Shown here: positions 10,015 through 49,477 of the stretch, piece by piece | Layout of the letters: each line of letters starts with the position of its first letter | Numbering within the stretch: position 1 is the first letter of the stretch | NCBI GenBank assembly: GCA_963705305.1 | Contig: OY970067.1 | Coordinates: 4,576,001 to 4,640,000 of the forward strand | DNA length: 64,000 bases | Source of the DNA: an uncultured Methylomirabilota bacterium | GTDB lineage: Bacteria > Methylomirabilota > Methylomirabilia > Methylomirabilales > 2-02-FULL-66-22 | Reading direction: 5' to 3' | The notes under the pieces: generated by a model | What the model saw: only the letters and a program-made list of their open reading frames with translations | Databases searched by the model: none | Told to the model about the DNA's origin: nothing | Translations under genes and position numbers: made by a program

Positions 10015-10053
10015 TTGTAGGAGACCTCGTTTAGCGAGGAAAAATGACAGCTT

Positions 10054-12058: not shown

Positions 12059-12062
12059 GGCC

Positions 12063-12929: not shown

Positions 12930-12989
12930 CGCCGCACCGCCTCCACACCGCACACGCTCCCCGCGTGCCGCATGGGGATGGCCACGCTC

Positions 12990-13583: not shown

Positions 13584-14107
13584 GCCCCGGGTTCAATCAG
13601 GCCGTAGTTTCCGTCGCGGCGGCGATAGAGCACATTCACCTCGTCCGTGCGCGCGTTCCGGAAGACGTAGAAGCTGTGGCCCAGGAGGTTCATCTGGAGG
13701 ATGGCCTCCTCCACCTCGGCGGGCTTGACCGCAAATCGCTTCGTTTTGACTACTGCCGGCTCATCCTCGGCCGCCTCGTTCGTGCCGGGCAGGTCCGCCT
13801 GCCGGATGCCTCCCCGCCCCTCGTGGGCAACGATCCGCTCCTTGTAGCGCAGGATCTGCCGCTCCAGCTTTTCCACGACGAGGTCGATCGACGAGTAGAG
13901 GTCCTGGGTACTCTCCTCCGCCCGGATGGTGAGATCCCGGACGCGCAGGGTGACCTCGGCGATCTGCCGGTGCTTCGCGACGGAGAGAACCACGTGGGCT
14001 GCGACGATGTTCCCCAGGTACTTGGTCAGCCGGCCCAGCTTTTCTTCTGCATACGTGCGGAGGGCGTCCGTGATCTCCAGATTGCGCCCACTCAGGGATA
14101 GCTGCAT
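13580..14107 (-). CDS. hpf: Ribosome hibernation promoting factor (long HPF)
   Basis: GRNLEITDALRTY, DLYSSID...KLERQ, C-terminal EEAILQMNLLGHSFYVFRN...VLYRRRDGNYGLIEP. Confidence 0.95.
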   Translation of the reverse strand: MQLSLSGRNLEITDALRTYAEEKLGRLTKYLGNIVAAHVVLSVAKHRQIAEVTLRVRDLTIRAEESTQDLYSSIDLVVEKLERQILRYKERIVAHEGRGGIRQADLPGTNEAAEDEPAVVKTKRFAVKPAEVEEAILQMNLLGHSFYVFRNARTDEVNVLYRRRDGNYGLIEPGA

Positions 14108-14218
14108 GGCTGCGCTCCTTCCGCTGATTGTGGGTCTGCGGGGTGCCGCTGCCTCTCGAACTCCCGACAGCTAGCCGGCGGACAGAGGACCCTCGGCCTG
14201 CCGGTGCGAACCAACGAA

Positions 14219-14390
14219 CAGGGTACTGAAAAACCCGCTTTCCCCAGGCTGCCCAAAAAGGTCCAGATGCAAGGCGGCGCGCCGGGTACCCATCCGTGAG
14301 GATGGGTGCAGACGCGAGCCGTACTTACGGGTACGTCGCAGCGTCGCGAGAGCGTGCCAACGCGGCAGATGGGCCTTTTTCAGCAGCCTG
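14219..14390. repeat. MITE-like inverted-repeat element, copy 1
   Basis: Ends CAGGCTGCCCAAAAAGGTCCAGATGC ... GCAGATGGGCCTTTTTCAGCAGCCTG, plus an outer degenerate end at 14219. Similar copies at 35476 and 54289. Abuts the rpoN stop codon. Confidence 0.85.
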
Positions 14391-33293: not shown

Positions 33294-34300
33294 GAGTCTC
33301 CTCCTTTCGTGCGTCGGGATCTGAGGGTGGCGAGGAACATCTCCATGAAGCGTGGCTCGTCGAGGTCGAGGGCGACCTGGGCGTTGACCGGCCCCGGCGC
33401 TGGAAAGAGGAACCGGGTCGACTCAGCATATCCGAGAAGCTGGCCGGCGGTCAATCCCTCCCCCAGCTGCACCGCCACGTGCATCGGGGTGAGCTTCAGA
33501 ATCAGTGGATCCAGTGCGAACGCCAGGGCCAGAGGGTCGTGCAGCCAAAATCCCGGCAGCCCCCGCACCTCTCTGGCAAAGCGCAGCCAGGGGCGGCTGG
33601 TCGCCGCCAAGAACTCGTGAAGCGAGGTCCCGCCTGCGGCGATGCGGTCCAGGTCGTCGGGCCGCATGAATGTCCGTGAGGTAACATCCAGGGGAACCAG
33701 CACAACTGGGGCGCCGGAGGCCAACACCACTGCCGCGGCCTCGGGATCGTAGCCGACATTGAATTCGACCGCGGGGGTCACCAGTCCCGACACGCGAATC
33801 GCCCCGCCCATGACCACGATCCCGGCCACCGCGGCCGCCACCGCCGGATCCAGCAAGAGCGCCGTTGCCACGTTCGTGCAGGGCCCGATAGCCACGATCG
33901 TCACCCCCCCGGGGCGCGCGCGGACGGCGTCGGCGATGAACTCGGCGGCCCGAGCGGCGGCGGGCCGCAACCGAGGAGGATCGAGGGGGGGCACGTCCCA
34001 ATAGCGCTCCACCGCTTGGCGGCCGCGGGCCGCCATGAGTGCCCGGATCCTCGTCGGGTCCCGCAGCAGCGGACGTTCCGCTCCCGGCACGACCGGAACC
34101 TGGCCGCGCCCCGCAATCTCCAGCAAGCGGAGGGTATTCGTCACGCCCTCTGCCTGCTCGACGTTTCCCGCCACGATGGTCAGTCCCAACAGCTCGCAAT
34201 TGGGGTGGAGAAGCCCCAGGGCGATGGCCAGCCCGTCGTCGACATCCGATCCGGGCGTTCCAATGCCGGGGTCTGTATCCAGGATGATCGTTCTGGGCAT
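33290..34300 (-). CDS. Nucleoside hydrolase (IU-NH family)
   Basis: IILDTDPG...DVDD, VAGN, IGPCTN, MGG, EFNVGYDPEAA, LHDP. Confidence 0.9.
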   Translation of the reverse strand: MPRTIILDTDPGIGTPGSDVDDGLAIALGLLHPNCELLGLTIVAGNVEQAEGVTNTLRLLEIAGRGQVPVVPGAERPLLRDPTRIRALMAARGRQAVERYWDVPPLDPPRLRPAAARAAEFIADAVRARPGGVTIVAIGPCTNVATALLLDPAVAAAVAGIVVMGGAIRVSGLVTPAVEFNVGYDPEAAAVVLASGAPVVLVPLDVTSRTFMRPDDLDRIAAGGTSLHEFLAATSRPWLRFAREVRGLPGFWLHDPLALAFALDPLILKLTPMHVAVQLGEGLTAGQLLGYAESTRFLFPAPGPVNAQVALDLDEPRFMEMFLATLRSRRTKGGDS

Positions 34301-34370
34301 GCTCTCCCTCTCCTCGAGCGTCCCGGTCGGAGTCCAGGCGGCTCCCCCGCCAGCGGGCTCCATCCTCACC

Positions 34371-35408
34371 TCAGGTGTACACCTGGATTTTGTCGGAGGG
34401 GATGAGGAGGCGCACCGGACCGGGAGGCCGGAGATCCGGGCTGTCGGCCATGACCATGAAGCTCCCGATCCGAACGTAGTGGCGGTAGTGGGCGCCCAGG
34501 AACAGACTTTCCTCCAACATCCCCGACAGCACCGCCACCCCGGTGGGGCCCGGGCCGGACTCCTCCTCCAAACGGACGTCGGAGGCGCGAAAGATGAGCG
34601 TGGCCCTCCCGCGCGCCGGCCCTCCGTACGGAACGGCCTGCCCCCCCACCACCACCCGGCCCTCGCTCGCCTCCCCTTCCAGCTGGTTGCTGACCCCGAG
34701 AAACTCCGCGGCGAAGGCTGTACTGGGTCGGAGGTAGATATCCTGCGGGGTGCCCGTCTGGACGATCCGGCCCTGATCCATCAGGACCACGGTGTCGGCC
34801 AGAGCCAGCGCCTCCTCCTGGTCGTGCGTGACGTAGATGGCGGTGATCCCGACCTGCCGCTGGACGCGCCGAAGCTCCACGCGCAGCCGCTGGCGCACTT
34901 TGGCATCCAGGTTGGAGAGGGGCTCGTCCATCAGGAGGACTTTGGGCTCCACCACCAGCGCCCGGGCCAGCGCCACGCGCTGTTGCTGCCCCCCGCTGAG
35001 CGCGCCGGGCTTGCGGCTCTCGACGTCCTCCAGGCTGCCGATCTCCACCAGCTCCAGGACGCGGCGCACCCGTCTTTGGATGTCGGCCCGAGGAACTTTC
35101 TGGAGCCGCAGTCCGTAGGCCACGTTCTCGAAAATGGTCATGTGGGGCCACAAGGCATAGTTCTGGAACACCATGGCCGTGCCGCGCCGCTGCGGCGGCA
35201 ATCCCGAGACCTCCTCGGCGTCGAAGAAGATGCGGCCCGCATCCAGCTGGAGGAATCCCGCGATGCTCCGCAGGAGCGTGGTTTTCCCGCAGCCGCTAGG
35301 GCCCAGGATGGCCGTCAGGGCGCCGCTCTTGAAAGTCAAGGTGGCGCCCTTCAGTGCGCCGACCTTCCCGTACGCCTTCCGTATGTCCTCAACGCGAACC
35401 TCGACCAT
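34371..35408 (-). CDS. ABC transporter ATP-binding protein (PotA/MalK type, TOBE domain)
   Basis: GPSGCGKTT, VFQNYALWPHM, LSGGQQQRVALAR, DEPLSNLD, YVTHDQEEA. Confidence 0.93.
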   Translation of the reverse strand: MVEVRVEDIRKAYGKVGALKGATLTFKSGALTAILGPSGCGKTTLLRSIAGFLQLDAGRIFFDAEEVSGLPPQRRGTAMVFQNYALWPHMTIFENVAYGLRLQKVPRADIQRRVRRVLELVEIGSLEDVESRKPGALSGGQQQRVALARALVVEPKVLLMDEPLSNLDAKVRQRLRVELRRVQRQVGITAIYVTHDQEEALALADTVVLMDQGRIVQTGTPQDIYLRPSTAFAAEFLGVSNQLEGEASEGRVVVGGQAVPYGGPARGRATLIFRASDVRLEEESGPGPTGVAVLSGMLEESLFLGAHYRHYVRIGSFMVMADSPDLRPPGPVRLLIPSDKIQVYT

Positions 35409-35475
35409 GGCACCCCTTTGCAGCCGCGCTCCCGGACCTAGATCATAGCGGGATCTGGAATAACTGTCTTCGCGC

Positions 35476-35621
35476 AAGGCTGCTCAAAAAGGCCCAGGTG
35501 CAAGGCGCCGCGCCGGGTACCCATCCGCAGGATGGGTGCAGGCGCGAGCCGTACTTTGCGCGTACGTCGCAGCGCCGCGCGAGCGCGCCAACGCCGCAGA
35601 TGGGCCTTTTTCAGCAGCGTT
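35476..35621. repeat. MITE-like inverted-repeat element, copy 2
   Basis: AGGCTGCTCAAAAAGGCCCAGGTGC ... GCAGATGGGCCTTTTTCAGCAGC with internal hairpin GTACCCATCC-GCA-GGATGGGTGC; directly after the stop codon at 35622. Confidence 0.85.
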
Positions 35622-36443
35622 TCAGATGCGCCCGAACATGCTGAGGTACTCCGACTTCATGTAGCGCTCCAGAAGGAGCAGCAGCAGGATGCCCGGCACC
35701 ATCAGGATCAAGGCGCTGATGGAGGCCACCTGCAGCTCATATCCCATCGAGGTCCGGTACATGTAGACCGGCAGGGTGAGCACGAATGGGCTGCCCACCA
35801 GCAGGGTCCCCGTGAACTCGTCCAGCGAATAGAGGAATACCAGCAGCGTGCTGGCGATGATCCCCGGCGTGGCCAACGGAAGCGACACGGAGTAGAAACT
35901 CTTGAATCGCGAGGCGCCCAGATTGATGGCGGCCTCCTCCAGCGTCTCGGGTACGGACTTGAAGACCGCCGTCATCGTCCAGACGGCGAATACCAGGGCC
36001 CCCACCATGTGGATCAGCACCACCCCGCCCAGCTTCCCGCCCAGGTTCACCCGGTACAGCAGCGTCGTGGAATTGACGAAGACGGGAAGCTGGGGAAACG
36101 CCTGGGGGAGGAGGAAGATCATGAGGATGAGGGGCTTGAACGGAATGGGCAGGCGGGCCAGGACGTATGCCAGGGGGATGGTGATGATGAGCGTGAGCAC
36201 CGTGACCACTCCCGCAATGAAAAAGCCGTCCCGCAGCGCCCGCAGCATGTCCCCCTCGAACACCTTGCCCCAATAGAACAGGCCGACCTGCTGGGGAAAC
36301 AGGTGCGGCCAATACCATTTTTCCGCGAAGGACCAGATGAGCAGGCTGGAGAGGGGGAGACAGATGACCACCCCGGCCGCTGCCACCCCGGCCATGCGGA
36401 GCGTCTGTCGGGTCAAACTCCGGCTGGCTCCCGTGTTCCCCAT
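35622..36443 (-). CDS. ABC transporter permease (PotC-like)
   Basis: WSFAEKWYWPHLFP, EEAAINLGAS, FLYSLDEF. Confidence 0.88.
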   Translation of the reverse strand: MGNTGASRSLTRQTLRMAGVAAAGVVICLPLSSLLIWSFAEKWYWPHLFPQQVGLFYWGKVFEGDMLRALRDGFFIAGVVTVLTLIITIPLAYVLARLPIPFKPLILMIFLLPQAFPQLPVFVNSTTLLYRVNLGGKLGGVVLIHMVGALVFAVWTMTAVFKSVPETLEEAAINLGASRFKSFYSVSLPLATPGIIASTLLVFLYSLDEFTGTLLVGSPFVLTLPVYMYRTSMGYELQVASISALILMVPGILLLLLLERYMKSEYLSMFGRI

Positions 36444-36448
36444 CCGCC

Positions 36449-37270
36449 TCAGGGCTCCTTCTGTGTGATGGTCCTGAGATAGTACCCCGCCACACCCATC
36501 GCCAGGAGGTATGACACCACCCCCAGCGCATTGGCTGTCCCGTAATCCCCCTGGTAATTGATCCGGTAGTACACATCGATCATGACCATCTGTGGAGGCT
36601 CCCCGCTTCCGATCATCAACGGGACGGAGAAGGCGGCCAGCATGGAGGTGAACATGAAGGCCCCCGCCACCGCCAGCGAGGCCCGCGACATGGGCAACAG
36701 AATGTCCCGAATCTGCCGGAACGTCGAGGCCCCGAAGTTGCGGGCCGCCTCCAGGAACGTCTCGTCCACGGAGCGGTAGGCGCCCAGCACCAGGAGAATT
36801 GCCAGGGCCAGGTTCTTCCAGATGAGAGAGACGGCGATGCCCATCCAGCCAAAGGCGATGGAGGGCGGATCGCTGAAGTTGATGAGCCCCACCTGGCTCA
36901 GGAAGGAGTTCAGGGTGCCCTTCGGGGCCAGCAGGACCCGCATGGCGTGGCCGACCACCACGAAGGGGATGAAGAGGGGGACCTTGAACAGAAACTCCAC
37001 CGGCCTATTGATGTGCACGCGGAGGTAGCCGCAGAGAAACACGGCTATCCCCAGGACCACCGCGAGGCTGAAGAACGCAATCCAGAGCGTGTACAGGATA
37101 TCGGTTCGGTACAGTCTCCAGACGAGGGAGTAGTTGTGGAGACTCCACCGGCCGTCATGCAGGAGGCTCAGGTGCGCCGAGGAGAGGAACGGGATGAAGA
37201 AGAGCCAGATGACGATGGCCAGCGGGGGGAGGGCGATAATGAGACAAGCGATGCGGGTGGTCAGTCGCAT
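36449..37270 (-). CDS. ABC transporter permease (PotB-like)
   Basis: PLFIPFVV, EAARNFGAS, FSVPLMIG, YGTANALG. Confidence 0.88.
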   Translation of the reverse strand: MRLTTRIACLIIALPPLAIVIWLFFIPFLSSAHLSLLHDGRWSLHNYSLVWRLYRTDILYTLWIAFFSLAVVLGIAVFLCGYLRVHINRPVEFLFKVPLFIPFVVVGHAMRVLLAPKGTLNSFLSQVGLINFSDPPSIAFGWMGIAVSLIWKNLALAILLVLGAYRSVDETFLEAARNFGASTFRQIRDILLPMSRASLAVAGAFMFTSMLAAFSVPLMIGSGEPPQMVMIDVYYRINYQGDYGTANALGVVSYLLAMGVAGYYLRTITQKEP

Positions 37271-37327
37271 AGGTCCCGGAGGGCGAGGCCGGCTCGGCCT
37301 CGCCCCCTCTCCAGGCTGATGGCGGGA

Positions 37328-38480
37328 TCAGTTTTCCTCGTAGGCGGTCAGCAGATCCTTGAAGTACTGTCCCTCGGGAAAGACCAGCCCGTACTTGGAC
37401 AGGACGTTCCGGCGGCACATCGCGGAAGAGCATCTCTCTGGCCTTGGCCGAAACCTCCGGCAGCACGTACTTGGCGTCGATGCCCGGGAGCCACCCGTTC
37501 CGCTCCACGATTACCCTGGCCTGCTGCACGGGCGAAGTGACGAACTCCACGTACTTCTTCGCCATCTCGGCGTTGGCGGCCGCCGCCGGGACCACCAGGT
37601 ACATGGGCTGTCCCGGGATGCCCGGCGCGATCAGCTTCATCTTGATCTTGGGATCCATGCGGCCTTCGTTTTTCATGTTGACCAGCATGTCCACCCAAAC
37701 CGGGCCCATGGCGATCTCGCCCCGATTGATCTTATCCAGGGTATCGTTGTTGCTGGTTGTCATGATCACGGGCAGGGCTTTCAGCTCTTTGATGACCGCC
37801 GGCCAGCCGGACTCCGCGCCCTTGTCATAGGGACCCTTGGCGTATGTCTGGTACTGCCCCGTCTTCCAGTAGGCCCAGCCGGTGGTGAACGCCACCCCGC
37901 TCATGCCGCCCTTGACCCCGTTGTAGCCGAACTTCCGGGGATTGGCCTTGATCCAGGCGACCAGCTCCTCATAGCTGTTGGGCGGGTTCTTCACCATGTC
38001 AGGGTTATACGCCAGAACCACCTGGCTGTGAAACATGGGCATCACGTACCCTTCCACGTCGAAGCCCAGGGCGTTCCGCCCGTCCGCCGCCGTCATGTAC
38101 TTGTAGGTGCCGATCTCCGGGGCGTACTTGGCCAGGAGACCGCTCTGGATCATGTCCGGCATAATGCTCTGATGGACGATGGCCACATCCATATCCCACT
38201 TGGCCACCCCGGCGTCCTTCTCGCTCTTGAGCTTTTGGAAGATCACCCGGCTCCCCGGATCCCCCGGGCCGCTCCCCACGGCATTGATCTCCACGTTGGG
38301 GTGCAGCTTCGTGAACTCCGGCCCGAAGACGTTCTTCTGGAGCTCGTGCATGTTGGTGTCCCCGGCGGTCACCACGTTGAGGACGATCTTTTCCGCCGCC
38401 CCCGCCGGTCCAATCCACCCCCATCCGAGAAACGCCAGGGCCAGCACCCCGCCCACCGCCCAAAACTTCACGCCCCTCAT
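37328..38480 (-). CDS. ABC transporter substrate-binding protein (apparent +1 frameshift near 37407)
   Basis: Signal peptide, LNVVTAGDTNM, MPMFHSQVVLAYNP, FGYNGVKGGMSG. Removing one base restores ...PDVLSKYGLVFPEGQYFKDLLTAYEEN* ending at 37328. Confidence 0.85.
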
Positions 38481-38866: not shown

Positions 38867-38881
38867 TGGCACGGAAGCTGC
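38867..38881 (+). promoter_or_regulatory. Putative sigma54 (-24/-12) promoter of the NifA-like gene
   Basis: TGGCAC-GGAAG-CTGC. Confidence 0.6.
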
Positions 38882-38899: not shown

Positions 38900-40585
38900 T
38901 TGGCGAGCACAAGTTTTACATCCCAAACATCTGATTTTCTGGAGGTCGCTATCCGAGCGCCAACCCGGCAAAGCGAGAACCAGCCGATCGATCGCCGCCT
39001 CCTGGAGCTGACGACCCTCTACGAGATCAGTAAGATTCTCGGGTCGTCGCTGATCCTGGAGCAGAACCTGACCGGCATCCTGCGGATCCTCAGCTCGTTC
39101 ATGGGGATGCGTAAGGGCACTATCTTGCTGTACGACGCCCTGACGGGCGAGCTTGCCATTCGCCTGGCCCTGGGCATGACCCCCGAGGAGATGGCCCGTG
39201 GCAAGTATCAGAAAGGTGAGGGGATCCTCGGAAAGGTCATACAGCATGGCGTCCCCATGGTGATCCCCGACATCGGCAAGGAACCCCTGTTCCTCGACCG
39301 TACCCTTTCGCGGGGTGATCTGTCCGCCCAGCACATCGCCTTTATCGCTGTCCCGATCAAGGCGGCCGGCGAGACGATCGGCGTCCTCAGCGTGGACCGG
39401 CTCTTTGCCGAAGGCGTGTCCTTCGAGGAAGACGTGCGGGTCCTTACTATCGTCGCCTCGTTGATCGGGCAGACCGTCAACCTCCACCGGCACGTGGCGC
39501 AGGAGCGGGAGGGTCTGCTAGAGCAGACCCGCAGCCTGCAGCAGGCCCTGACAAGCCGCTACCGATTGGGGAATATCGTCGGGCAGAGCAAGCGGATGCG
39601 GGAAATCTACCAGGCGGTGGAGCAGGTGTCCCAGACGCGGGCCACCGTTCTCATCCGGGGGGAAAGCGGCACCGGGAAGGAGTTGATCGCCCGCGCCATC
39701 CACTTCAACTCGCCCCGCGCTGCCGGTGTTTTCGTGAGACTCAACTGCGCCGCCCTGCCCCAGAGCCTGCTGGAGAGCGAACTGTTCGGCCACGAGAAAG
39801 GGGCATTCACCGGGGCCATCGCGGCCAAAAAGGGACGCTTCGAGCTCGCCGATGGGGGGAGTTTGTTCCTGGACGAGATCGGGGACATGCCCATGCCCGT
39901 TCAGGTGAAGCTCCTGCGGGTCTTGCAGGAGCGCTGTTTCGAGCGTGTCGGCGGCACCCGAACCATCACGGTGGACGTGAGGATCATCGCGGCAACCCAC
40001 AAGGACCTGGAGTCCGCTATTGCCCGCAGCGAATTCCGCGAGGATCTCTACTACCGGCTGAACGTGGTCCCCATCCTGCTTCCTTCACTGCGCGAACGGA
40101 GGGAGGACATCCCGCTCTTAATCGAGCATTTCCTGGCCAAGTACAACCGAGAGAACAACCGGAAGGTGCGGATCACCGGCCGGGTCCTGCAGACCATGCT
40201 GAACTACGACTGGCCGGGAAACGTCCGCGAGCTGGAGAACTGCATCGAGCGGATGGTCATTATGACGCGCCGGCGATTGGTGCTTCCCGAGGATCTACCC
40301 CTCCCCGTCGAGGCGGCGTCCGACGGGCCGGAGGATGCGCCGCGACACCCGGCCCCGGCGCGCGGGCGCGCACCCGCCGGCGGAGCGGCGGCGGCCGGCT
40401 TCTCCAATCTCCGGGACCTAGAGCGCCAGCAGATCATCCAGGCCCTGGGCCGCGCGAACGGCGTGCAGGCTCGGGCCGCCGCCTTGCTCGGCATCACACC
40501 CCGCCAGCTCGGCTATCGGATGCGAAGGCACAACATTGTCCGGGCCTTCAGGACGGCAAACGAAGAGCTGTCCGTGGAGGCCTGA
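38900..40585 (+). CDS. NifA-like sigma54 enhancer-binding protein (GAF-AAA+-HTH)
   Basis: GAF ([24 protein letters not shown]), [34 protein letters not shown]-terminal HTH. Start uncertain. Confidence 0.9.
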
Positions 40586-40713: not shown

Positions 40714-41673
40714 TCAGGTTTTGGGTCTTTTGGCCTCCTCTGTTTCTTTTGGCGGTGAAAGACCGAAGGCCAGCCCGCGCAGCTTCCACAGCCAGGCTGC
40801 CAGTCTTGACGTGGGATGCTGGTGCGTAGCGCGATATGTCACCACCACCGCTTCTGGGTTGGCCAGGGCCTTCCGGAACTCCAGAGCGCTCGGGAATCGA
40901 TCACGGGGATTGCGCTCGAGCGCATGCAGGATGATCTCCTCAAGCTGGGGGGAGATGTCGCGCCGCAGGTGGCTCGGCGGAATCGGATTCTTCAGAATCT
41001 TCGCTTGCAGCACAGCGTACACGTTTCGGCCCGTAAAGGGAACCTTGCCGGTCAGCATCTCGTACAGGATGACCCCCAGGCTGTAGGTGTCTGTGCGCGC
41101 GCTCCCGCGCTGTCCCTTGATCTGCTCGGGTGCCATATAGTTGGGCGTGCCGACCGGCTGCGACAACCCCGACCAGGTCATCCTGCGCTGGGATGCGTCG
41201 AAGGCAATGCCGAAGTCCATAAGCTTTATTCTCCCCGGCGGCAGGATCATGAGGTTGTCGGGCTTGAGATCACGATGCACCACATTGCGATCGTGCAAAT
41301 AGACGAGGATGTCTGCAATCTGAATCGCGAAATCCAGCGCCCGCGCAACGGGGAGTCGGCGTTCGCGCTGCAGCCGGGTGCTCAGCGGCTCCCCCTCCAC
41401 ATACTCCATCACGAGATAGAGGCGGCTCCGCTCCTGCACACGATAGGTCTTGATGATCCCCGGGTGATCGAGCGAGAGCCCGATGTTCTCCTCACGGATG
41501 AACCGTTGATGGAAGACCATGTCCCCCGCGTACTGAAGGTACGGCACCTTCAACACAGCGGTGCGGTCCTGCTTGGTATCGCGGGCACGAAATACCGTGG
41601 CCATGCCGCTGCGGGCAATGATGTCGAGAAGCTGAAACTGGTCGAGCATCTGTCCGGGAGCAGGCTCAGCCAT
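40714..41673 (-). CDS. Hanks-type Ser/Thr protein kinase (soluble)
   Basis: ARSGMATVF, VLKVP, HRDLKPDN, DFG, GTPNYMAPEQ, DTYSLG. Confidence 0.93.
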   Translation of the reverse strand: MAEPAPGQMLDQFQLLDIIARSGMATVFRARDTKQDRTAVLKVPYLQYAGDMVFHQRFIREENIGLSLDHPGIIKTYRVQERSRLYLVMEYVEGEPLSTRLQRERRLPVARALDFAIQIADILVYLHDRNVVHRDLKPDNLMILPPGRIKLMDFGIAFDASQRRMTWSGLSQPVGTPNYMAPEQIKGQRGSARTDTYSLGVILYEMLTGKVPFTGRNVYAVLQAKILKNPIPPSHLRRDISPQLEEIILHALERNPRDRFPSALEFRKALANPEAVVVTYRATHQHPTSRLAAWLWKLRGLAFGLSPPKETEEAKRPKT

Positions 41674-41947
41674 CCCAGCCCTCAGTTGCCGAGAAGTTCT
41701 CCGGTATCCAACGCCCAGGCAACCATGGGTGCTGGCATGGAGGTTGGCCGAGCAGCCACCCCCGCCGTCTGGCGACGACGCCACGACTGCCGCCCCCGGG
41801 TGGCGTGGACCGGCTGGGCTGCCCCCCAGGTCGTCCACAACGCGTCGCGGGTGCGGAGATCACGGACCACCCTCGGGTCGGCGCCCCGCCCGCAAACCTA
41901 ATCGAAAGCAGGAAGCTTGTCAATCGATGGACAGGCCGGCGACAGGC

Positions 41948-42793
41948 TCAATGCCAGAATCTCCACCAAGACGCCGGCGGGGGGGAGGCAGAACAGGAGA
42001 TGACCGCAGCCACCTGCAGGCTCATATTGTCCGGACCTCCGGCGTCCTGAGAGCGCTGGACAGCGGCCTTGCAGGCGGCTTCCGGGCGATTCTCGCGGAG
42101 CAGCGTGATCAGCTCGGCCTCTGATAGCACGTCATGAATGCCATCGCTGCATTGGAGCAGCACGTCTCCCGGCCGGATGTCCATCTTGAGGGTGTCGATG
42201 GAGGTAATCAGGTCGTGACCCAGGTAGTTGGTGAGCTTGTGCCGATCGGGATGCATCCGTGCTTCCTCTGGCGAAAGGATGCCGTATTCCATCTGCTCCT
42301 GCACCGAGGTGTGGTCTTTTGTGAGCTGGGAGAGCGCGCCATCGCGGAACAGGTAGAGCCGGCAATCTCCAATATGCGCTGCGACCAGTGTGCGGCCTAG
42401 CACCAGGCTGGCGGTGAGCGTCGTCCCCATGCGGTACAGCTCGGGGACCGTGATGCTCTTCTGGTAGATCTCCAGGTTCGCCTGCTGCACTGCACGCTTG
42501 AGGTTCCGCACCGGAGGCCCTGCGTCCACGGCGGCGGCCATCTCCCGGGCCAGTGCCTCGAGTGCGAGCGCGCTGGCGACCTCTCCGCTGCTGTGCCCGC
42601 CAAGGCCGTCGGCCACGGCAAAGAGGAACCCCTCCCCGTGCGGCCAGAACCCCAGGGCATCCTCATTCCCGTCACGCACGGAGCCGACATCTGTCAGCTG
42701 GAAGAACTCAATCTCAATGCTGCTGGTTTTGAGGTCCATCAGCGTGTGCACATGAGGATCCTGCATGGCCGGAGGTCGATAACCCGGACTCAT
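41948..42793 (-). CDS. PP2C/PPM-family Ser/Thr phosphatase
   Basis: DVGSVRDGNED, VADGLGGH, MGTT, HIGDCRLY, CSDG, GGPDN; overlaps the permease stop (ATGA). Confidence 0.93.
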   Translation of the reverse strand: MSPGYRPPAMQDPHVHTLMDLKTSSIEIEFFQLTDVGSVRDGNEDALGFWPHGEGFLFAVADGLGGHSSGEVASALALEALAREMAAAVDAGPPVRNLKRAVQQANLEIYQKSITVPELYRMGTTLTASLVLGRTLVAAHIGDCRLYLFRDGALSQLTKDHTSVQEQMEYGILSPEEARMHPDRHKLTNYLGHDLITSIDTLKMDIRPGDVLLQCSDGIHDVLSEAELITLLRENRPEAACKAAVQRSQDAGGPDNMSLQVAAVISCSASPPPASWWRFWH

Positions 42794-44370
42794 GAGCGCG
42801 ACACTTCACCTTCGGCTGTCTGGGGAGCGGCAATGATCCCGCGGCCCGAGCGCCTGCTCTTCACGATCACGTAGACTGCGCTCACCAGGGCCCATGCTCC
42901 TGAGATCGCGAAGCAGATATACGCCTCGCTCTTCGAGTCGCTGTTGCCGATGATATACAGATACACGATTGCGACGAGCATGGCCAGGTTCGCGAGGAGG
43001 CCGAGGATCGGAACGACCCCATGCTTCAGGGACCTGAATTCCCGCCGGTGCGAAAACGCAACGACCGTCCACAAGCAGGTGAGCCCGTAGAGCACGAATG
43101 TTCCGAGGTTCGATGCCAGCGTGATGCCGGTGAGTCCCACCACCGATTGCACGCCCACGGCCGCAATCGCGCACGACACGGCCACAAGCACCCAGACCGC
43201 CCTGTGTGGGGTGGCGAACTGGCCGTGGAGGAGGTTCAGGATCTCCGGCATTTCCTCATCCTGCGCCATGGCGTAGGTGACGCGGACCGCGGTGTTCATG
43301 CAACTCAGGGTGGTCCCGAGGATCGCCAGGGCAACGGTCACGGCGATGGAGATCATCAGGCCAAAGCCGATGCCTCCGAGTACGCTGTTGCCGATGAGGA
43401 TGGACAGATCGCCCATGGGGGCGCTTGATGCACCAGCAGCGGCCATACCCGCCACCGTTGATGTGGTCCCGTTATTGGTGACCGTGGCGACCAGCTTTTC
43501 GTTCACCATATAGCTGGCCGCGAAGTACTCAAAAAGGTAGGCGAACAGCCCTTGAATCACCAGCGAGATGATCACCGCGCGGGGAATGTCCCGCTTCGGG
43601 TTCTTCGCTTCGGCCGCGAAGGCAGTGCAGCTCTCAAATCCGACCAGAATGAGGATGGCCAGCGTTGACTGGATGAGCACTCCCTGGAGGGAGTGGGGGC
43701 GGATCACATCCCAGCCGCCGCTGAAGGCCCATTGGGTGGCACCCTGAGGGTTCATCATCCGGTAGGCGATCGCGGCGGCGCTGAAGCCGATGAGCGTGAT
43801 GAGCTGGATGACGTTGATCAGAAAGGCGGTCACTGTAGACCCGGAGATGCCACGGTAGGCGATATACCCAGTCACGACGGCGAACACCACCGCAATGATG
43901 GTGAGCGCCGTGTTCGAGAGGGTACTTCCCGTAAACTGCGTATACATGTACCCGATCAGCGTGGCCATCATGGCCACCATGACCCCAGGGTACACCCAGT
44001 AGAAGAGATGGGCTGCCCAGCCGGTGACGATCTTAGCCAGACGCGCCCACTTGTGATGCCCCCGCTCTTCCTTGTCAAGGAATGCCCGCTCGGCAAAGTA
44101 ATAGCAGCTGCCGAACCCAGCTTCGGGATAGAGGCGGGCAAGTTCTGCGTAGGAGATGGCCGTGAGAAAGGCGAGCACCAGGGCAAAAACGATCCCCGGC
44201 CAGATGTCGCTGGCGACCGAGCTCCCATCCGGAGCGGTGGCTGCAGCCTGCAGTTGGTAGGTAATCCAGAGGAACGCCCCCGGTGCGATCAGCGCCATGG
44301 CATTGACGGTGACACCGGTGAGGCCGAGTGTCCGTGTTACTGGGGACGGGGTATTGGGGCTCTCGTTCAT
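42790..44370 (-). CDS. APC-superfamily amino acid/amine permease
   Basis: About 12 TM segments, NAMALIAPGAF, YAELARLYPEAG, LVGFESCTAFAAEAKNPKRDIPRA, RVTYAMA, TPHRA. Confidence 0.9.
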   Translation of the reverse strand: MNESPNTPSPVTRTLGLTGVTVNAMALIAPGAFLWITYQLQAAATAPDGSSVASDIWPGIVFALVLAFLTAISYAELARLYPEAGFGSCYYFAERAFLDKEERGHHKWARLAKIVTGWAAHLFYWVYPGVMVAMMATLIGYMYTQFTGSTLSNTALTIIAVVFAVVTGYIAYRGISGSTVTAFLINVIQLITLIGFSAAAIAYRMMNPQGATQWAFSGGWDVIRPHSLQGVLIQSTLAILILVGFESCTAFAAEAKNPKRDIPRAVIISLVIQGLFAYLFEYFAASYMVNEKLVATVTNNGTTSTVAGMAAAGASSAPMGDLSILIGNSVLGGIGFGLMISIAVTVALAILGTTLSCMNTAVRVTYAMAQDEEMPEILNLLHGQFATPHRAVWVLVAVSCAIAAVGVQSVVGLTGITLASNLGTFVLYGLTCLWTVVAFSHRREFRSLKHGVVPILGLLANLAMLVAIVYLYIIGNSDSKSEAYICFAISGAWALVSAVYVIVKSRRSGRGIIAAPQTAEGEVSRS

Positions 44371-44455
44371 TCTTGCCTCCCTCCATGTCAGAGCAGCACG
44401 CGCACTCTCAACACCCGCATCGTTGCCTACTCTCTCCGTCACTGACTTACAGGAG

Positions 44456-44470
44456 GCAAGGCGGGTGCCA
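44456..44470 (-). promoter_or_regulatory. Sigma54 promoter of the APC permease-PP2C-kinase operon
   Basis: Minus strand TGGCAC-CCGCC-TTGC (full consensus), about 85 nt upstream of the ATG. Confidence 0.8.
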
Positions 44471-44937
44471 CAGGCAGAGCTTGCCCGCCGAACCGGATGG
44501 AACGTCGTATAACTAAAGGGCGGAGTGCGGTTCCATTGCTCCCAAAGTGAAGGGGGCATCGACACCGCAACAAGGTGCGGATACAACAAGAATGTTGTTC
44601 CATACGTTTTTGTAGCGAGGCCGGAAAACGCGCTTCGCCAAAGGCCAGATCCGCATTCTGCCATCCTTGGATTGGGTGGGGGCGCCCCCCGGGACTATGG
44701 AGGCTCGTCCCCGGCCAGCCTCGGCGCTGGCTGCCGCGCCGATTCAACCGTTGCGCTTCGCCGGCGCCTCTGTCCACTGTCTCGCGTTTCAAGGTCGAAA
44801 GCGGCGTTTTTGTCTTCTCTAAACAGATTTGTGCGGATTACGCAGAATGCCCTGGACAAACTCCTCGAACCGATGGCAACCGGAATCAGCTATCGAATCA
44901 ACAGGTTGAGAGGATCACAGGGTAGACCGGTACACCT

Positions 44938-44952
44938 GGGCACGCTGCTTGC
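44938..44952 (+). promoter_or_regulatory. Sigma54 promoter of the PII-like gene
   Basis: GGGCAC-GCTGC-TTGC about 95 nt upstream of the ATG at 45048. Confidence 0.7.
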
Positions 44953-45047
44953 CCCCCGGACAAGAAGCATTCGGGAGGAAATTATCGCGGAGGCAGCGCG
45001 TGAGGGCTGCCCACGAGCGGTGAGTCGCAGGCAGCACGGAGGCGGCC

Positions 45048-45386
45048 ATGAAGAAGGTGGACATCATTATTCGCCCCCATAAGCTGGAAGAGGTACGGGG
45101 CGCTCTCACGGCGGTCGGTATTCGGGGCGTGACCGTGACGGATGTCAAGGGTTTCAGCCGCCAGGGGGGAACGACAGGTTCTTCTTGCGGCGACGAAGGT
45201 GGCCCCACCTTCAACCTCAAGGTTCGCCTGGAGGTCCTGATCCCCGACGCGATGCTGGAGCGGATCATGCAATCGGCGGGCGAGGCGGCCCGAACCGGTC
45301 GGCTCGGCGACGGGAAGATTCTGGTGACCGATGTACTCAACGTCGTGCGGATCCGCACCGGTGAAACAGGGGACGCCGCCATTTGA
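45048..45386 (+). CDS. P-II family nitrogen signalling protein with atypical T-loop
   Basis: 112 aa; IIRPHKLEEV, VKGFSRQ, TGRLGDGKI, RIRTGE; Tyr51 replaced by Gly. Confidence 0.9.
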   Translation: MKKVDIIIRPHKLEEVRGALTAVGIRGVTVTDVKGFSRQGGTTGSSCGDEGGPTFNLKVRLEVLIPDAMLERIMQSAGEAARTGRLGDGKILVTDVLNVVRIRTGETGDAAI

Positions 45387-45643: not shown

Positions 45644-46600
45644 ATGGTGAAAAGACGATTGGCACCGGGTGTTCTGCTGGGTCTGGCATTGGCAGTTCTG
45701 CTGACCGTACCGGCATGGGCCGAAGAGCCGAGCGGGCCGAACACCGGCGCGCTGTCGCTGACCGTCAATCTCAACTTTCCGACCTCCTACTACTTTCGCG
45801 GCATCGCCCAGAACAACGCCGGGTTTCAGTTCGAGCCGTACGTGGAACTCAAGGCCAACGTCTATCAAGGCAACGACAAAGACGTGATAAGCGGTGGCTA
45901 CTTCAAGGTCGCCGGATTTTCACACTTCCAGTCCACGGCGGCACCGATGAATACGAACTACTACGAGCAGGATGTCTACCTCTCCGGCGGGCTGGTCTTG
46001 CTGAAGCGCGCCACTCTCGAATCCGGCTGGAATCTTTATACCTATCCCGGCATCGGGTCATCCGCCCAGGTCCAGGAAGTCTACGGCAAGGTGAGCTTCG
46101 ACGACGGCGGTCTGTGGCCGTTCACGCTGCCGGGCAAGCAGGACTTTTCACTCTCGCCCTACGTGCTGGTGGCCGGAGAGACGTCGGGCGGAGCGGACGG
46201 CGCCGCCCCCTTTGGCGGCCACAGGGGTACCTACATGGAGTTCGGGACCGATCCTGGCTACTCCGTAGATTTCAACAAGGATTGGTCCGCCCGTTTCCAC
46301 CTGCCCTTCGTCCTCGGCCTCAATCTCCACGACTACTACGAGGTCGCCACGACCACGGGCCTGGAGGACAAGACCTTCGGTTATGCCGATCTGGCGCTGG
46401 CGGTCGATATTCCATTGAAATTCATGCCTGCGCGCTACGGCAAGTGGACCTTCACCACCGGACTGCATGGATTGTGGTTGGGCCCCACCGCCAAGCTGTT
46501 GGACGGTCCACCCTCCAATAACGCCCTGAACGCTGTGAACGTTACCGGCGGCAATGGCTTCCAGGTGTGGGGGCTCACAGGGGTCACAATCGAATACTGA
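45644..46600 (+). CDS. Putative outer-membrane beta-barrel (TIGR02001/Gcw_chp-like)
   Basis: Signal peptide (AWA-EE), TSYYFRGIAQ, YYEQD, YTYP, C-terminal GVTIEY; downstream of PII. Confidence 0.65.
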   Translation: MVKRRLAPGVLLGLALAVLLTVPAWAEEPSGPNTGALSLTVNLNFPTSYYFRGIAQNNAGFQFEPYVELKANVYQGNDKDVISGGYFKVAGFSHFQSTAAPMNTNYYEQDVYLSGGLVLLKRATLESGWNLYTYPGIGSSAQVQEVYGKVSFDDGGLWPFTLPGKQDFSLSPYVLVAGETSGGADGAAPFGGHRGTYMEFGTDPGYSVDFNKDWSARFHLPFVLGLNLHDYYEVATTTGLEDKTFGYADLALAVDIPLKFMPARYGKWTFTTGLHGLWLGPTAKLLDGPPSNNALNAVNVTGGNGFQVWGLTGVTIEY

Positions 46601-46841: not shown

Positions 46842-48305
46842 TCACTCCCCGACGGCATCCTCCTTCCCGCCCGATCGAGTCGGGAGCGCAATCCGGAGCT
46901 CTCTGATTCGCTTGCGCAGCGTGTTCCGATTGATCCCCAGGAGCTCGGCGGCCTTGACCTGGTTCCCTCCCGTGCGGCGCAAGATCAGCTCGATCAGCGG
47001 GCGCTCGACGCAATCCGCGATGTGCTGGTGAAGGCGCCCATCCCGGATGTCCTGGAGCCGCGACAGCTCGGCCCGCAGCCAGTCCACGGGAAAGCTGGCG
47101 GCGCTCGGGGTCGCCTCGGAAGGCGCAGGTCCGGGACGGGCTGCGTCCGGCAGATGCTCCGGCAGGATCAGCTGCGTCGGGGCCAGGGCCGCCGCCCGCT
47201 TCGCCACATTTTCCAGCTCCCGGACGTTTCCAGGCCAGGCGTAGGCCAGGAGCAGCTGCGCGGCCTCGTCGGAAAAGACCTTAGGCTCGGCGCCTTGCTC
47301 GCGGGCAAATACCGCCAGAAAATGATTGGACAGGGCCGGGATATCCTCCCGCCGGTCGCGCAGGGGGGGAAGGTGAATGGTGACCACATTCAGCCGGTAG
47401 AAAAGATCCTCCCGAAAGGTCCGGCGCGCGACGGCGGCTTCCAGGTCCTGGTTCGTGGCCGCAACGATCCGCACGTCCACAGGGGTGGACCCCTCGCTCC
47501 CCAGTCGCTCGATGCGCCGCTCCTGCAGCACTCGCAGCAGCTTGGTCTGGAGGCTCAGGTCCATGTCCCCGATCTCGTCCAGGAATACGGTCCCCCCCTC
47601 CGCCTGCTCGAATCGACCTCGTCTCGCCATGACCGCCCCGGTGAAGGCCCCCTTCTCGTGGCCGAACAGCTCGCTCTCCAGAAGCTCGCGGGGGATGGCG
47701 GCGCAGTTGACCGGGACGAAGGGCCGGCCCTTCCGGCGGCTATTCTCGTGGATCGCGCGGGCGATCAGTTCTTTGCCCGTGCCGCTCTCCCCGCGGAGCA
47801 GCACCGTGAGGTCGGTCCCGGCCACTTTTCCGACCGCCTTGAAGATCTGCTGCATGGCGGGGCTGCCCCCCACGATGCCTCCCAGATCAAACGGCTCTTC
47901 CACACCCTGCCGGAGGCGCGTGACCTCCCGCGCCAAGGCCTGGGCCTCCAGGGCCTTCTCGACTACCAGCAGAACCTCATCCATGTCGAAGGGCTTCCCG
48001 ATGTAGTCGTAGGCCCCCTGCTTCATCGCTTCGACTGCCACCTGGAGCGTCCCGTAGGCTGTCATCATGATGACCGGAAGCTCCGCCCGGCGCTTGCGGA
48101 TCTCGCGAAGCACGCCCAGCCCATCCCGGCCGGGAAGGCGTACGTCCAACAGGACGAGGTCCACCTCGGGATGCTCCGCCGCACGGAGGCCGCCCGGTCC
48201 GTCCGCAGCCAGGTCCACCCGGTGGCCTGCCCGCTCCAGTGCTTTGCTGAGGGCCCAGCGAACGCCCTCCTCGTCGTCCACCACCAGAATCCGCTTGCCC
48301 GTCAT
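46842..48305 (-). CDS. ntrC: NtrC-type sigma54 response regulator
   Basis: REC (VVDD, LLDVRLP, KPF), [14 protein letters not shown], Fis HTH GGNQVKAAELLGINRNTLRKRI. Confidence 0.85.
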   Translation of the reverse strand: MTGKRILVVDDEEGVRWALSKALERAGHRVDLAADGPGGLRAAEHPEVDLVLLDVRLPGRDGLGVLREIRKRRAELPVIMMTAYGTLQVAVEAMKQGAYDYIGKPFDMDEVLLVVEKALEAQALAREVTRLRQGVEEPFDLGGIVGGSPAMQQIFKAVGKVAGTDLTVLLRGESGTGKELIARAIHENSRRKGRPFVPVNCAAIPRELLESELFGHEKGAFTGAVMARRGRFEQAEGGTVFLDEIGDMDLSLQTKLLRVLQERRIERLGSEGSTPVDVRIVAATNQDLEAAVARRTFREDLFYRLNVVTIHLPPLRDRREDIPALSNHFLAVFAREQGAEPKVFSDEAAQLLLAYAWPGNVRELENVAKRAAALAPTQLILPEHLPDAARPGPAPSEATPSAASFPVDWLRAELSRLQDIRDGRLHQHIADCVERPLIELILRRTGGNQVKAAELLGINRNTLRKRIRELRIALPTRSGGKEDAVGE

Positions 48306-49477
48306 GGCCGGATCCCCTCCTCCTCACCAGCGATGGGCAGGAGGACACGAAACGTCGTACCCTCTCCCTGCAGGCTCTGCACCTCCACCGTCCCGCCGTG
48401 CTCTTCGACGATGCGGAGGGAGATCGGCAGGCCCAATCCGGTGCCTCCATCCTTCGTGGTGAAGAACGGATTGAACAGCTGCCCCTCCACCTCGGGAGGA
48501 ATGCCGGGCCCGTGATCGGCGACCTCCAGCACGGCTGCCGCGCGCCCGCCGCACTGCGGCGCCACGCGCTCGAACCGGGATCGAACCACCAACTCCCCTC
48601 CTCCCGGCATGGCTTCCGCGCCGTTCCGAATGAGGTTGAGGAAGACCTGCAGCAGGCGGTCCTGGTCTCCCTTTACCGCCGGGACCTCGGGGTCGTATTG
48701 CCGCACGACGCGCACACCAGCGGCACTCATGTCGGCGTCCTGAAGGCGCAGCGCTTCCTCCAGCACCTGGTGGATATTGCACGGCTGCAACCGAAGCAGG
48801 CGCGGCCCAGCAACGGTGAGAAGATCCTCGACAAGGCGATTTAGCCGATCGACCTGGCGAATGATGACCCCCGTGAACTCCCGAAGATTGGGAGGAAAGC
48901 TCGGCTCCCCCTCCAGAAGCTGCGCCGCCGCGCGGATGCCCACCAGGGGATTCCGTACCTCGTGGGCCACCCCCGCCGCCAGCACCCCCAGGGCCGCCAG
49001 GCGATTGGAACGCCCCTCTTGGCCCGCCAGCTCGCGGATGCGGGAAAGGTCCCGGAGCACCAGCACCACCCCCCGCGTCTCCCCATGCGGATCGCTGATC
49101 AGCGACGCAACCGCGCTCACAGTCAGCCGGCCCCCGTCCGCCCGAATCAGGGGCGCGTCGAAATCGCCGTGGCTTCTCCCCACAGCGACCGTCTTGGCGA
49201 GCAGGCTCGCCAGTGGGGCGGGCGGCGGGAAGATCTCCCCGATGGTTCGTTTGACCACCTGCGATCGCGAGAAGCCCGTCAACTCTTCGGCGGCGGGGTT
49301 GATGGACACAATCCGCCCCTCGGGATCCAGGAGGATCACGCCGTCCTGCAGGCTCGAAATCAGATCCTCATGGTGTGCGCGGAGCTCCTGGAGGGCGGCG
49401 GCAAGGTCTGCATTCTGCCGCTCCAGTGTCGCCAGTCGCTCTCGAAGCTCTCTGGTGGGATGTCGCGCAGTCATCAC
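48302..49477 (-). CDS. ntrB: NtrB-type PAS histidine kinase
   Basis: PAS (INPAAEEL), H-box AHEVRNPLVGIRAAAQLL, N-box NLIRNG, DHGPGI, FNPFFTTK, GTGLGL; no TM segment. Confidence 0.82.
   Translation of the reverse strand: MMTARHPTRELRERLATLERQNADLAAALQELRAHHEDLISSLQDGVILLDPEGRIVSINPAAEELTGFSRSQVVKRTIGEIFPPPAPLASLLAKTVAVGRSHGDFDAPLIRADGGRLTVSAVASLISDPHGETRGVVLVLRDLSRIRELAGQEGRSNRLAALGVLAAGVAHEVRNPLVGIRAAAQLLEGEPSFPPNLREFTGVIIRQVDRLNRLVEDLLTVAGPRLLRLQPCNIHQVLEEALRLQDADMSAAGVRVVRQYDPEVPAVKGDQDRLLQVFLNLIRNGAEAMPGGGELVVRSRFERVAPQCGGRAAAVLEVADHGPGIPPEVEGQLFNPFFTTKDGGTGLGLPISLRIVEEHGGTVEVQSLQGEGTTFRVLLPIAGEEEGIRP

What the first reader, a model, noticed from the sequence alone, without database searches (positions are those of the whole stretch)
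40714..45386. Sigma54 module pairing a Ser/Thr kinase, PP2C and APC permease with a PII that cannot be uridylylated
Seen: an APC permease-PP2C-kinase operon and a PII gene are divergent, each behind its own -24/-12 promoter (44456-44470 and 44938-44952). The PII keeps Gln39, Lys58 and the B/C loops, but its T-loop reads SRQGGTTGSSCGDEGGPTF, so Tyr51 is Gly and the loop is Ser/Thr-rich. Known: proteobacterial PII is modified at Tyr51, while cyanobacterial PII is phosphorylated on T-loop Ser49 and dephosphorylated by the PP2C PphA. Inference: a possibly undescribed nitrogen-signalling circuit in which this kinase/phosphatase pair modifies the PII T-loop and/or the permease, with PII gating an APC transporter in place of AmtB (no amtB in the window).
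Basis: partly seen in the sequence, partly recalled or inferred. Interest (0 to 1): 0.78.

Follow-up and report, generated by a model that had tools for sequence, protein, structure and literature searches.

The report
Kinase-switched permease beside orphaned PII
A membrane transporter gene with its own protein kinase and phosphatase sits back-to-back with a nitrogen-sensor (PII) gene that has lost its usual ammonium-channel neighbour and whose signalling loop is drifting, so the kinase likely switches the transporter itself rather than marking this PII.

Summary
The PII is the genus's own glnK. In relatives it has an intact Tyr51/Ser49 loop and is followed by amtB, without the trio. Here amtB is gone from the locus and the loop evolves near-neutrally (rough dN/dS about 0.8, body about 0.15). 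Its closest relatives degenerate in different ways and mostly lose Ser49; T42/S45/S46 are nearly private to this copy. A canonical glnB, glnD and amtB lie elsewhere in the genome. The APC-PP2C-kinase trio is a separate, patchily distributed, nitrogen-linked module: 65 of 80 related loci have it, 49 lie near glutamine synthetase, and only 20 of the 65 lie near any PII. The kinase is usually tail-anchored. One sister clade carries the permease fused to a Tyr-less PII, lacks the cognate kinase and has lost permease Thr18, which almost all kinase-side permeases keep. Best reading: the kinase and PP2C likely act on the permease (candidate site Thr18); the substrate is unknown. Re-targeting of this PII to the permease remains open (about 0.2). 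The scan noted both the trio and the fusion before on other DNA. I found no paper on either.

The parts
40714..41667 (-). Hanks-type Ser/Thr kinase, 317 aa: catalytic domain plus a short aromatic/amphipathic C-tail, no sensor domain
   Evidence: PF00069 E 6e-50. Catalytic Lys, alphaC Glu, HRDxKPxN, DFG and GTPxYMxPE are at least 95% conserved in 63 aligned rows. Start from the G013 alignment. A hydrophobic C-tail in 59 of 65 relatives; the window's tail is weaker, peak hydropathy 0.53.
41895..41923 (-). Sigma70-like site (TTGACA-17-TAGGTT) between PP2C and kinase; possible separate kinase promoter
   Evidence: Kept in G013 amid diverged DNA. Not found by the same kind of regex in the gaps of the other trio loci (0 of 60 same-strand loci, gaps over 600 bp not scanned). 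Untested.
41948..42793 (-). PP2C/PPM phosphatase, 281 aa, start overlapping the permease stop; Trp-rich C-terminus
   Evidence: PF13672/PF00481. Five Asp motifs invariant in 11 aligned sequences. Trp-containing aromatic tails in 30 of 61 relatives.
42790..44370 (-). APC-superfamily permease, 526 aa, uncharacterised subfamily; Thr18 (and Thr14) at the start of TM1 are candidate phosphosites
   Evidence: PF13520. AlphaFold model pLDDT 81.7, pTM 0.85. Best fold match GkApcT 6F34, TM 0.70, 18% identity. Thr18 in 55 of 56 non-fused rows against 2 of 106 fusion rows matched.
44456..44470 (-). Sigma54 -24/-12 promoter of the permease operon
   Evidence: Identical in L168, conserved in G013.
44585..44614 (.). 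Likely activator-binding site (ACA-N4-TGT-N8-ACA-N4-TGT type), 114 bp from the permease promoter
   Evidence: Rank 1 of 5.6 million positions with a matrix that included 3 orthologous sites. Only rank 67, below shuffled maxima, with a matrix from glnK sites alone. Suggestive only.
44803..44833 (.). Likely activator site of the PII gene, with a spacer one base longer than in intact orthologues
   Evidence: Alignment of 10 upstream regions; score 10.6, rank 72.
44938..44952 (+). Sigma54 -24/-12 promoter of the PII gene
   Evidence: GGCA...TTGC invariant in 10 of 10 aligned upstream regions.
45048..45386 (+). PII, the host genus's glnK orthologue that has lost its amtB; body conserved, T-loop (45156-45218) degenerate
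   Evidence: Nests in the genus glnK clade, SH-aLRT 98. Synteny. Loop versus body rates.
45644..46600 (+). Putative outer-membrane barrel; in relatives it follows amtB
   Evidence: Weak TIGR02001 match, 32 bits, below the 47-bit cut-off. Synteny.
38900..40585 (+). NifA-like GAF-AAA+-HTH sigma54 activator; in relatives it lies directly upstream of glnK, and here the trio separates them
   Evidence: TIGR01817 604.5 bits, over the 528.85 cut-off. No nifH over cut-off in the genome. Synteny.
46842..49477 (-). ntrC-like and ntrB-like two-component pair of the ancestral locus
   Evidence: TIGR01818 552 bits, just under the 558.6 cut-off. Conserved neighbours in relatives.

Best explanation
A mobile permease-phosphatase-kinase operon is inserted in the host's nifA-like/glnK/amtB nitrogen locus, the glnK has lost its amtB and its loop is drifting, and the kinase and phosphatase likely switch the permease itself. 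Shown: the gene layout, the origin of the PII, the loss of amtB from this locus, the relaxed loop with a conserved body, intact catalytic motifs, and the mutual exclusion of the kinase/PP2C and a fused PII in this permease family. Inferred: under nitrogen limitation a sigma54 activator (the NifA-like neighbour or NtrC) would induce permease and PP2C together. The membrane-associated, sensor-less kinase would phosphorylate the cytoplasmic start of TM1 (candidate Thr18), and PP2C would reverse this, gating uptake of an unknown nitrogen compound. Which state is 'on' is not known. The orphan PII would still fold and probably bind nucleotide and 2-oxoglutarate, but its loop no longer serves AmtB, GlnD or a kinase; core sensing is likely left to glnB-glnA-glnE and amtB-glnD elsewhere in the genome.
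For: Origin of the PII: 9 same-genus loci carry glnK followed by amtB with Tyr51 intact and no trio. Of 31 metagenome loci of this glnK clade, 29 keep Tyr51, 26 of those are followed by amtB, and none of the 29 has the permease. The 2 without Tyr51 (L139, L168) both carry the permease-side DNA. Tree. Drift: Tyr51 is kept in 77 of 77 ordinary orthologues but 12 of 20 in the window's subclade, lost to G, H, P, F or L. Loop dN over gene dS is 0.55-0.84 for window pairs and 0.02-0.32 for intact pairs; body 0.13-0.16. The window differs from the intact consensus at 13 of 21 loop and 21 of 90 body positions, p=0.001. Trio independent of PII: a PII lies within 8 kb in 20 of 65 trio loci, and 11 of 14 PII genes in bacterial trio loci keep Tyr51. 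G013 and G059 have the trio with no PII nearby. The permease is found in 3 of 251 genomes of the phylum. Nitrogen link: GS, PII or Amt lies within 8 kb in 67 of 80 loci, GS in 49. Membrane target: kinase tail helix in 59 of 65. The 8 fused permeases have no PP2C or kinase in the locus and no cognate kinase found in their genomes (0 of 8), while 2 of 2 non-fused permeases cut off by contig ends have one at 58-62% identity. Thr18 in 55 of 56 versus 2 of 106.
Against: No phosphorylation, binding or transport was measured. The fusion, kinase loss and Thr18 loss are one evolutionary event (8 rows, one clade), and 18 other permease columns also differ in that clade, so Thr18 is only a candidate. The completeness of the 8 fusion genomes is not given. 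The loop excess is not significant for L168 (p=0.09) or L139 (p=0.59). The PII body is still under purifying selection, and the layout has persisted in three lineages, so the PII may have a job here. The window's kinase lacks a full transmembrane tail. Context is known for only 3 members of the PII subclade. GS, near 49 of 80 loci, is an alternative kinase target.
Confidence: 0.55

Rival explanations
1. The permease is mainly a sensor (transceptor) that controls the sensor-less kinase and the PP2C, whose targets are other nitrogen proteins such as glutamine synthetase, Amt or a transcription factor. The PII is an orphan, as in the best explanation.
For: The kinase has no input domain. GS lies near 49 of 80 loci and Amt near 8. 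A transporter-fold sensor coupled to a kinase exists in Kuenenia Amt5 (PMC10433425, passages). GlnA is listed as a substrate of a bacterial Ser/Thr kinase (PMC6213207, table passage).
Against: Where kinase and PP2C are absent, a PII is fused to the permease. PII on transporters is a regulator of the transporter, which points to control flowing onto the permease (inference). In this genome GS is about 0.88 Mb away, with glnB and glnE. A porin gene lies near 33 of 80 loci, as expected for uptake.
Confidence: 0.2
2. The freed GlnK has been re-targeted to the permease through a surface that does not need the T-loop. It would be a free-standing equivalent of the fused PII domain and add 2-oxoglutarate/ATP control to the phospho-switch.
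For: 120 of the 120 best hits to a fused protein carry a PII domain. The fused domains keep R9, G35, G37, Q39, K58, G87, K90, R101 and R103, and only 1 of 116 loops has any Tyr, much like the window's pattern. The fusion clade lies in the same 29-row permease clade. In the model, the last helix runs straight into the first PII strand. The body dN/dS is about 0.15. The divergent layout is shared by the window, L168 and L139.
Against: The window's PII is unrelated to the fused domains. It carries G37S and P57L, against G in 117 and P in 119 of 119 homologues. Close relatives carry K58N, G37D, G84C or a 12-residue loop deletion. The trio persists without a nearby PII in G013 and G059.
Confidence: 0.18
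3. One reading: the kinase and PP2C phosphorylate and dephosphorylate Ser/Thr residues in this PII's T-loop in place of uridylylation, as PphA does on cyanobacterial Ser49.
For: Adjacency, paired sigma54 promoters, five Ser/Thr in the loop, loss of Tyr51. The cyanobacterial PII kinase was unidentified as of 2015 (PMC4285133, passages).
Against: In the 20-member subclade, T42 occurs in 1, S45 in 1, S46 in 2 and S49 in 1. T43 is the canonical residue, also in 75 of 77 ordinary orthologues, and S49 is in 72 of those 77. The two other PII genes with this layout have different loops, with none of T42, S45, S46 or S49. 45 of 65 trio loci have no PII within 8 kb.
Confidence: 0.05

Closest known systems
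GlnK-AmtB (E. coli; PMC4274968 and PMC10433425, passages read)
   Same: The window's PII is a glnK by descent and synteny; sigma54 promoter; effector-binding residues largely kept.
   Different: amtB is gone from the locus. Arg47, which plugs AmtB, and Tyr51 are lost. The adjacent transporter has the APC fold, not the Amt fold.
Cyanobacterial PII Ser49 phosphorylation and PphA (PMC4285133, passages read)
   Same: A PP2C-type phosphatase and a PII occur together in a nitrogen context.
   Different: Position 49 is Asp, and the loop Ser/Thr are not conserved. The PP2C overlaps the permease gene and travels with it, not with PII.
APC-fold transporters GkApcT (6F34), AdiC, BasC, KimA; phospho-regulated NKCC1/NCC
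   Same: Same fold (TM 0.56-0.70; entries titled 'phosphorylated NKCC1' are among the hits). That cation-chloride cotransporters are switched by N-terminal threonine phosphorylation is recalled, not from a call.
   Different: Only 13-18% identity; substrate unknown; a dedicated bacterial kinase/PP2C pair is encoded in the same operon.
Mycobacterial PknF-Rv1747 and PknD-MmpL7 (kinase acting on a transporter; PMC6213207, table and reference passages)
   Same: A Hanks kinase with a membrane transporter as substrate.
   Different: Those are ABC and MmpL transporters, with FHA domains in Rv1747. No cognate PP2C or nitrogen regulon is given in the passages read.
APC-PII fusion family
   Same: Same permease subfamily (62-68% identity), nitrogen context, Tyr-less G/D-rich loop.
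   Different: There the PII is fused, forms a separate PII clade, has its own free PII partner, and kinase, PP2C and Thr18 are absent.

Membership tests
PII (GlnB/GlnK) | PF00543 domain, 112 aa, colinear with canonical PII | tested here: met
   85.9 bits against a cut-off of 25; ungapped 48% to the genome's glnB
PII (GlnB/GlnK) | Effector-site residues (R/K9, G35, G37, R38, Q39, K58, G87, K90, R101, R103) | tested here: inconclusive
   All kept except G37S; adjacent P57L. Binding not measured.
GlnD-modified PII | Tyr51 | tested here: not met
   Gly51. The NCBIfam equivalogs score 111 against 202 and 108 against 181.
GlnK-AmtB pair | glnK adjacent to amtB, with Arg47 at the loop tip | tested here: not met
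   No amtB at the locus; the single amtB is about 1.96 Mb away; Cys47
Cyanobacterial PII-PphA phosphorylation | Conserved T-loop Ser49 | tested here: not met
   Asp49; Ser49 in 1 of 20 subclade members
Cyanobacterial PII-PphA phosphorylation | PP2C orthologous to PphA and active on PII-P | not tested
   No comparison with PphA was made; activity cannot be tested here
Hanks-type Ser/Thr kinase | Catalytic Lys, alphaC Glu, HRD, DFG, PE motifs | tested here: met
PP2C/PPM phosphatase | Metal-binding Asp motifs | tested here: met
   D35, D52, D133, D207 and D245 (alignment numbering) invariant in 11 rows
APC superfamily | Profile match and APC/LeuT fold | tested here: met
Any characterised APC subfamily (CAT/ApcT, AdiC, Eat, KimA) | Family-level similarity or known substrate | tested here: not met
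   All NCBIfam permease models far below cut-off (best 86.6 against 556.8); best PDB sequence hit E 2e-4
APC-PII fusion family | PII in frame after the last helix, with a dedicated free PII | tested here: not met
   The permease ends at 526 aa and overlaps PP2C; the window's PII is in another clade
Kinase-gated permease (proposed) | Permease phosphorylated by the cognate kinase | not testable with these tools
   Only conservation evidence

The most novel reading that the evidence does not exclude
A widespread APC nitrogen-uptake family carries two interchangeable control heads: a dedicated membrane kinase/PP2C acting on Thr18 at the inner gate, or a fused, loop-less PII. This lineage shows a host GlnK, freed from AmtB, being recruited to the permease through a T-loop-independent surface, which would be a new way for PII to gate a non-Amt transporter.
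Probability: 0.15. Interest if true: 0.82.

Novelty: new variant of a known kind. Interest (0 to 1): 0.52.

Why it matters
Prokaryotic control of nitrogen uptake is known mainly through PII plugging Amt channels. If the best reading holds, many uncultured bacteria and some methanogens instead switch an APC permease with a dedicated kinase/phosphatase pair. One clade swapped that pair for a fused PII, which gives a natural experiment and a named residue (Thr18) to test. The specific claim of a new PII kinase, which would have touched the open question of the cyanobacterial PII kinase, is not supported. This PII is mainly an example of a signalling loop released after its partner was lost.

Tried and rejected
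1. Complex prediction of permease with PII was not available, so there is no verdict on binding. 2. Folding the natural fusion gave pTM 0.75 and mean pLDDT 73, which does not tell whether the PII domain has a fixed pose. 3. The protein atlas gave no answer for the permease. 4. Substrate: sequence and fold searches give only distant amino-acid and cation transporters; no substrate could be assigned. 5. A first activator-site matrix was out of register and meaningless. The non-circular version ranks the two sites 67th and 72nd, below shuffled maxima. 6. Idea that the trio replaces amtB: G013 has the trio and an amtB with at least one frameshift and an in-frame stop, but its nifA-like gene is also frameshifted, so assembly error is possible. 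Amt lies near 8 of 80 permease loci, so the two are not exclusive. Inconclusive. 7. No amtB remnant was found between the PII and the barrel. 8. A compensated frameshift as the cause of the loop was rejected. 9. A separate kinase promoter is seen only in the window and G013. 10. A recalled link to kinase/phosphatase genes in Pseudomonas nitrate clusters found no paper, and a plasmid search gave only generic kinases of at most about 41% identity among the 25 rows listed. 11. No RNA holder was listed, so nothing can be said on expression. 12. The careful permease tree did not finish; both trees are quick trees. Two of the 80 permease loci were left out of the tree as too short, and the PII part of the fusions was cut off. 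13. Literature searches found no paper on the trio or the fusion; the library lacks most subscription papers, and I read no supplements.


Full report
Observation. The permease is 526 aa, and the PP2C start overlaps its stop. The kinase most likely starts at 41667, 280 bp after the PP2C stop. The promoter pattern alone is not above chance (4 against 2.2 +/- 1.4), but both sites are conserved in relatives. The PII loop is as read, in frame, and is matched by a public contig (possibly the source sample). The locus also holds a NifA-like activator, a barrel gene and ntrBC-like genes. Source names of the nearest PII homologues point to Methylomirabilota. Elsewhere the genome has a canonical Tyr51 glnB followed by glnA and a glnE-like gene, an amtB near glnD, and no nifH over cut-off.

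Where the PII comes from. In 9 same-genus loci the orthologue has an intact loop and is followed by amtB, usually in the order nifA-like, glnK, amtB, barrel, ntrC, ntrB. A tenth (G015) has an intact loop with no amtB after it. None has the permease, which was found in 1 of 20 other genomes of the genus and 3 of 251 of the phylum. A metagenome scan returned 80 PII loci; I examined the top 33, of which 31 belong to this glnK clade. Of these 31, 29 keep Tyr51, 26 of the 29 show amtB next (the other 3 contigs end within about 520 bp), and none of the 29 shows the permease. The two without Tyr51 are L168, which has the window's layout with a 91% identical permease, and L139, whose upstream DNA aligns to the permease promoter region until the contig ends and whose PII is followed by a receiver-domain gene. 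A quick tree nests the window's PII in the genus glnK clade (SH-aLRT 98), apart from fused and trio-neighbour PIIs. So the trio sits inserted between the activator and glnK, and amtB is missing.

The loop is drifting, not specialised. Among the 120 listed best homologues (733 passed), 20 including the window share Asn56, and 77 are ordinary orthologues; the 23 most distant rows were left out of this count. Tyr51 is kept in 77 of 77 versus 12 of 20, and lost to five different residues; Arg47 is lost to C, G, H or S; one member lacks 12 loop residues. Ser49, the cyanobacterial site (PMC4285133, passages), is in 72 of 77 ordinary orthologues but 1 of 20 in the subclade. A rough Nei-Gojobori estimate (loop dN over whole-gene dS) gives 0.55-0.84 for window pairs and 0.02-0.32 for intact pairs; body values are 0.13-0.16 against 0.05-0.16. 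The loop excess is significant for the window (p=0.001) but not for L168 (0.09) or L139 (0.59). GlnK contacts AmtB almost only through the loop, with Arg47 blocking the pore (PMC4274968, passages), so release of the loop is what loss of AmtB predicts. The conserved body says this is not yet a dead gene, although relatives carry K58N, G37D or G84C.

The trio is its own module. Of 335 related permease stretches the best 80 loci were kept: PP2C in 68, kinase in 65, GS in 49, a porin in 33, a PII in 32, Amt in 8, and at least one of GS, PII or Amt in 67. They span Ignavibacteriota, Bacteroidota, Chloroflexota, Binatota, Gemmatimonadota, Spirochaetota and Methanoregulaceae. Only 20 of 65 trio loci have a PII within 8 kb, and 11 of the 14 PII genes in bacterial trio loci keep Tyr51; the methanogen loci carry several divergent PIIs. 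G013 and G059 have the trio with no PII nearby. Kinase and phosphatase motifs are intact. The kinase has no sensor domain and ends in a hydrophobic helix in 59 of 65 relatives; the window and its five nearest non-genus relatives have a shorter aromatic tail. The kinase is inverted in 4 of 64 loci.

A natural experiment. In 8 of the 80 loci the permease runs in frame into a PII domain, is followed by a free PII, and has no PP2C or kinase nearby. These form one clade inside the window's branch. The fusion is common: 120 of the 120 best hits carry a PII domain. The domain keeps the effector residues and has a variable G/D-rich loop, 1 of 116 with any Tyr. No cognate kinase was found in the 8 fusion genomes (7 had no hit at 1e-20, one had 18 generic kinases of 27-41% identity), while 2 of 2 non-fused permeases at contig ends have one at 58-62% (completeness not given). 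Thr18 is the clearest Ser/Thr difference: 55 of 56 non-fused rows versus 2 of 106 fusion rows matched (14 of 120 unmatched). It lies at the start of the first helix in the model, the cytoplasmic end by standard APC topology (recalled). This is one event, so it nominates a site without proving it.

Mechanism. Best reading (0.55): the kinase and PP2C likely switch the permease, and the PII is an orphaned GlnK with a released loop. The orphan part alone I put at about 0.85. Rivals: permease as sensor with other kinase targets (0.2); PII re-targeted to the permease without its loop, as in the fusions (0.18); kinase acting on this PII (0.05). The substrate is unknown; the closest fold is GkApcT at 18% identity.

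Novelty. Searches found no paper on the trio or the fusion. I read passages of PMC4285133, PMC4274968, PMC10433425, PMC6213207 and PMC12539734, saw the others only as listings, and read no supplements. The scan's own notes report both the trio and the fusion in other genomes; these are unchecked AI notes. I took the tail-anchor, GS and porin leads from them and tested them; the fusion I saw before looking it up. What this window adds is the origin of the PII, the evidence against it as kinase substrate, and the link between kinase loss, fusion and Thr18. Verdict: a new variant of known transporter-control schemes, interest 0.52.

Noticed in passing
L019, L021, L022, L023, L026, L037, L041, L048; P0121-P0240: APC permease fused in frame to a PII domain with a Tyr-less loop, followed by a dedicated free PII; kinase, PP2C and Thr18 absent.
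   Followed up: yes
window 38900-40585: A GAF-AAA+ activator passes the NifA equivalog cut-off although the genome has no nifH over cut-off. It is the constant upstream neighbour of glnK in the genus and has its own sigma54-like site at 38867-38881.
   Followed up: partly
G000:C1:182043 and 180567-181745(-): The activator-like site also lies 104 bp from a sigma54 promoter upstream of a branched-chain-amino-acid-type ABC binding protein gene (identified by eye), a possible further member of the regulon.
   Followed up: partly
L136 (G013:C26), L138 (G014:C226): Two genus members have nifA-like followed by amtB with glnK missing; G013's amtB has at least one frameshift and an in-frame stop, and no PII was found anywhere in G013.
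   Followed up: partly
L222 (G059:C15) 8469-14331; L139 828-1172: G059 has porin, permease, PP2C, kinase and then a receiver protein with an ANTAR-like tail (recognised by eye); a receiver-domain gene also follows the PII in L139.
   Followed up: no
L063, L065, L068, L076, L079, L080, L082: Methanoregulaceae loci insert or append three to five divergent PII genes to the trio, and six of them have a KdpB-like P-type ATPase nearby.
   Followed up: no
window 41895-41923(-): A sigma70-like site before the kinase, conserved in G013 only; it would allow kinase expression apart from the sigma54 operon.
   Followed up: partly
77 ordinary glnK orthologues: This genus's glnK carries both Ser49 (72 of 77) and Tyr51 (77 of 77), the cyanobacterial-type loop tip, in an organism with GlnD.
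   Followed up: no
window 33290-38480(-): An ABC transporter with a nucleoside hydrolase gene is a conserved neighbour of the locus in the genus.
   Followed up: no
L021, L049, L051-L054, L064: A small YnfA/UPF0060 membrane protein recurs in 7 of 80 permease loci.
   Followed up: no
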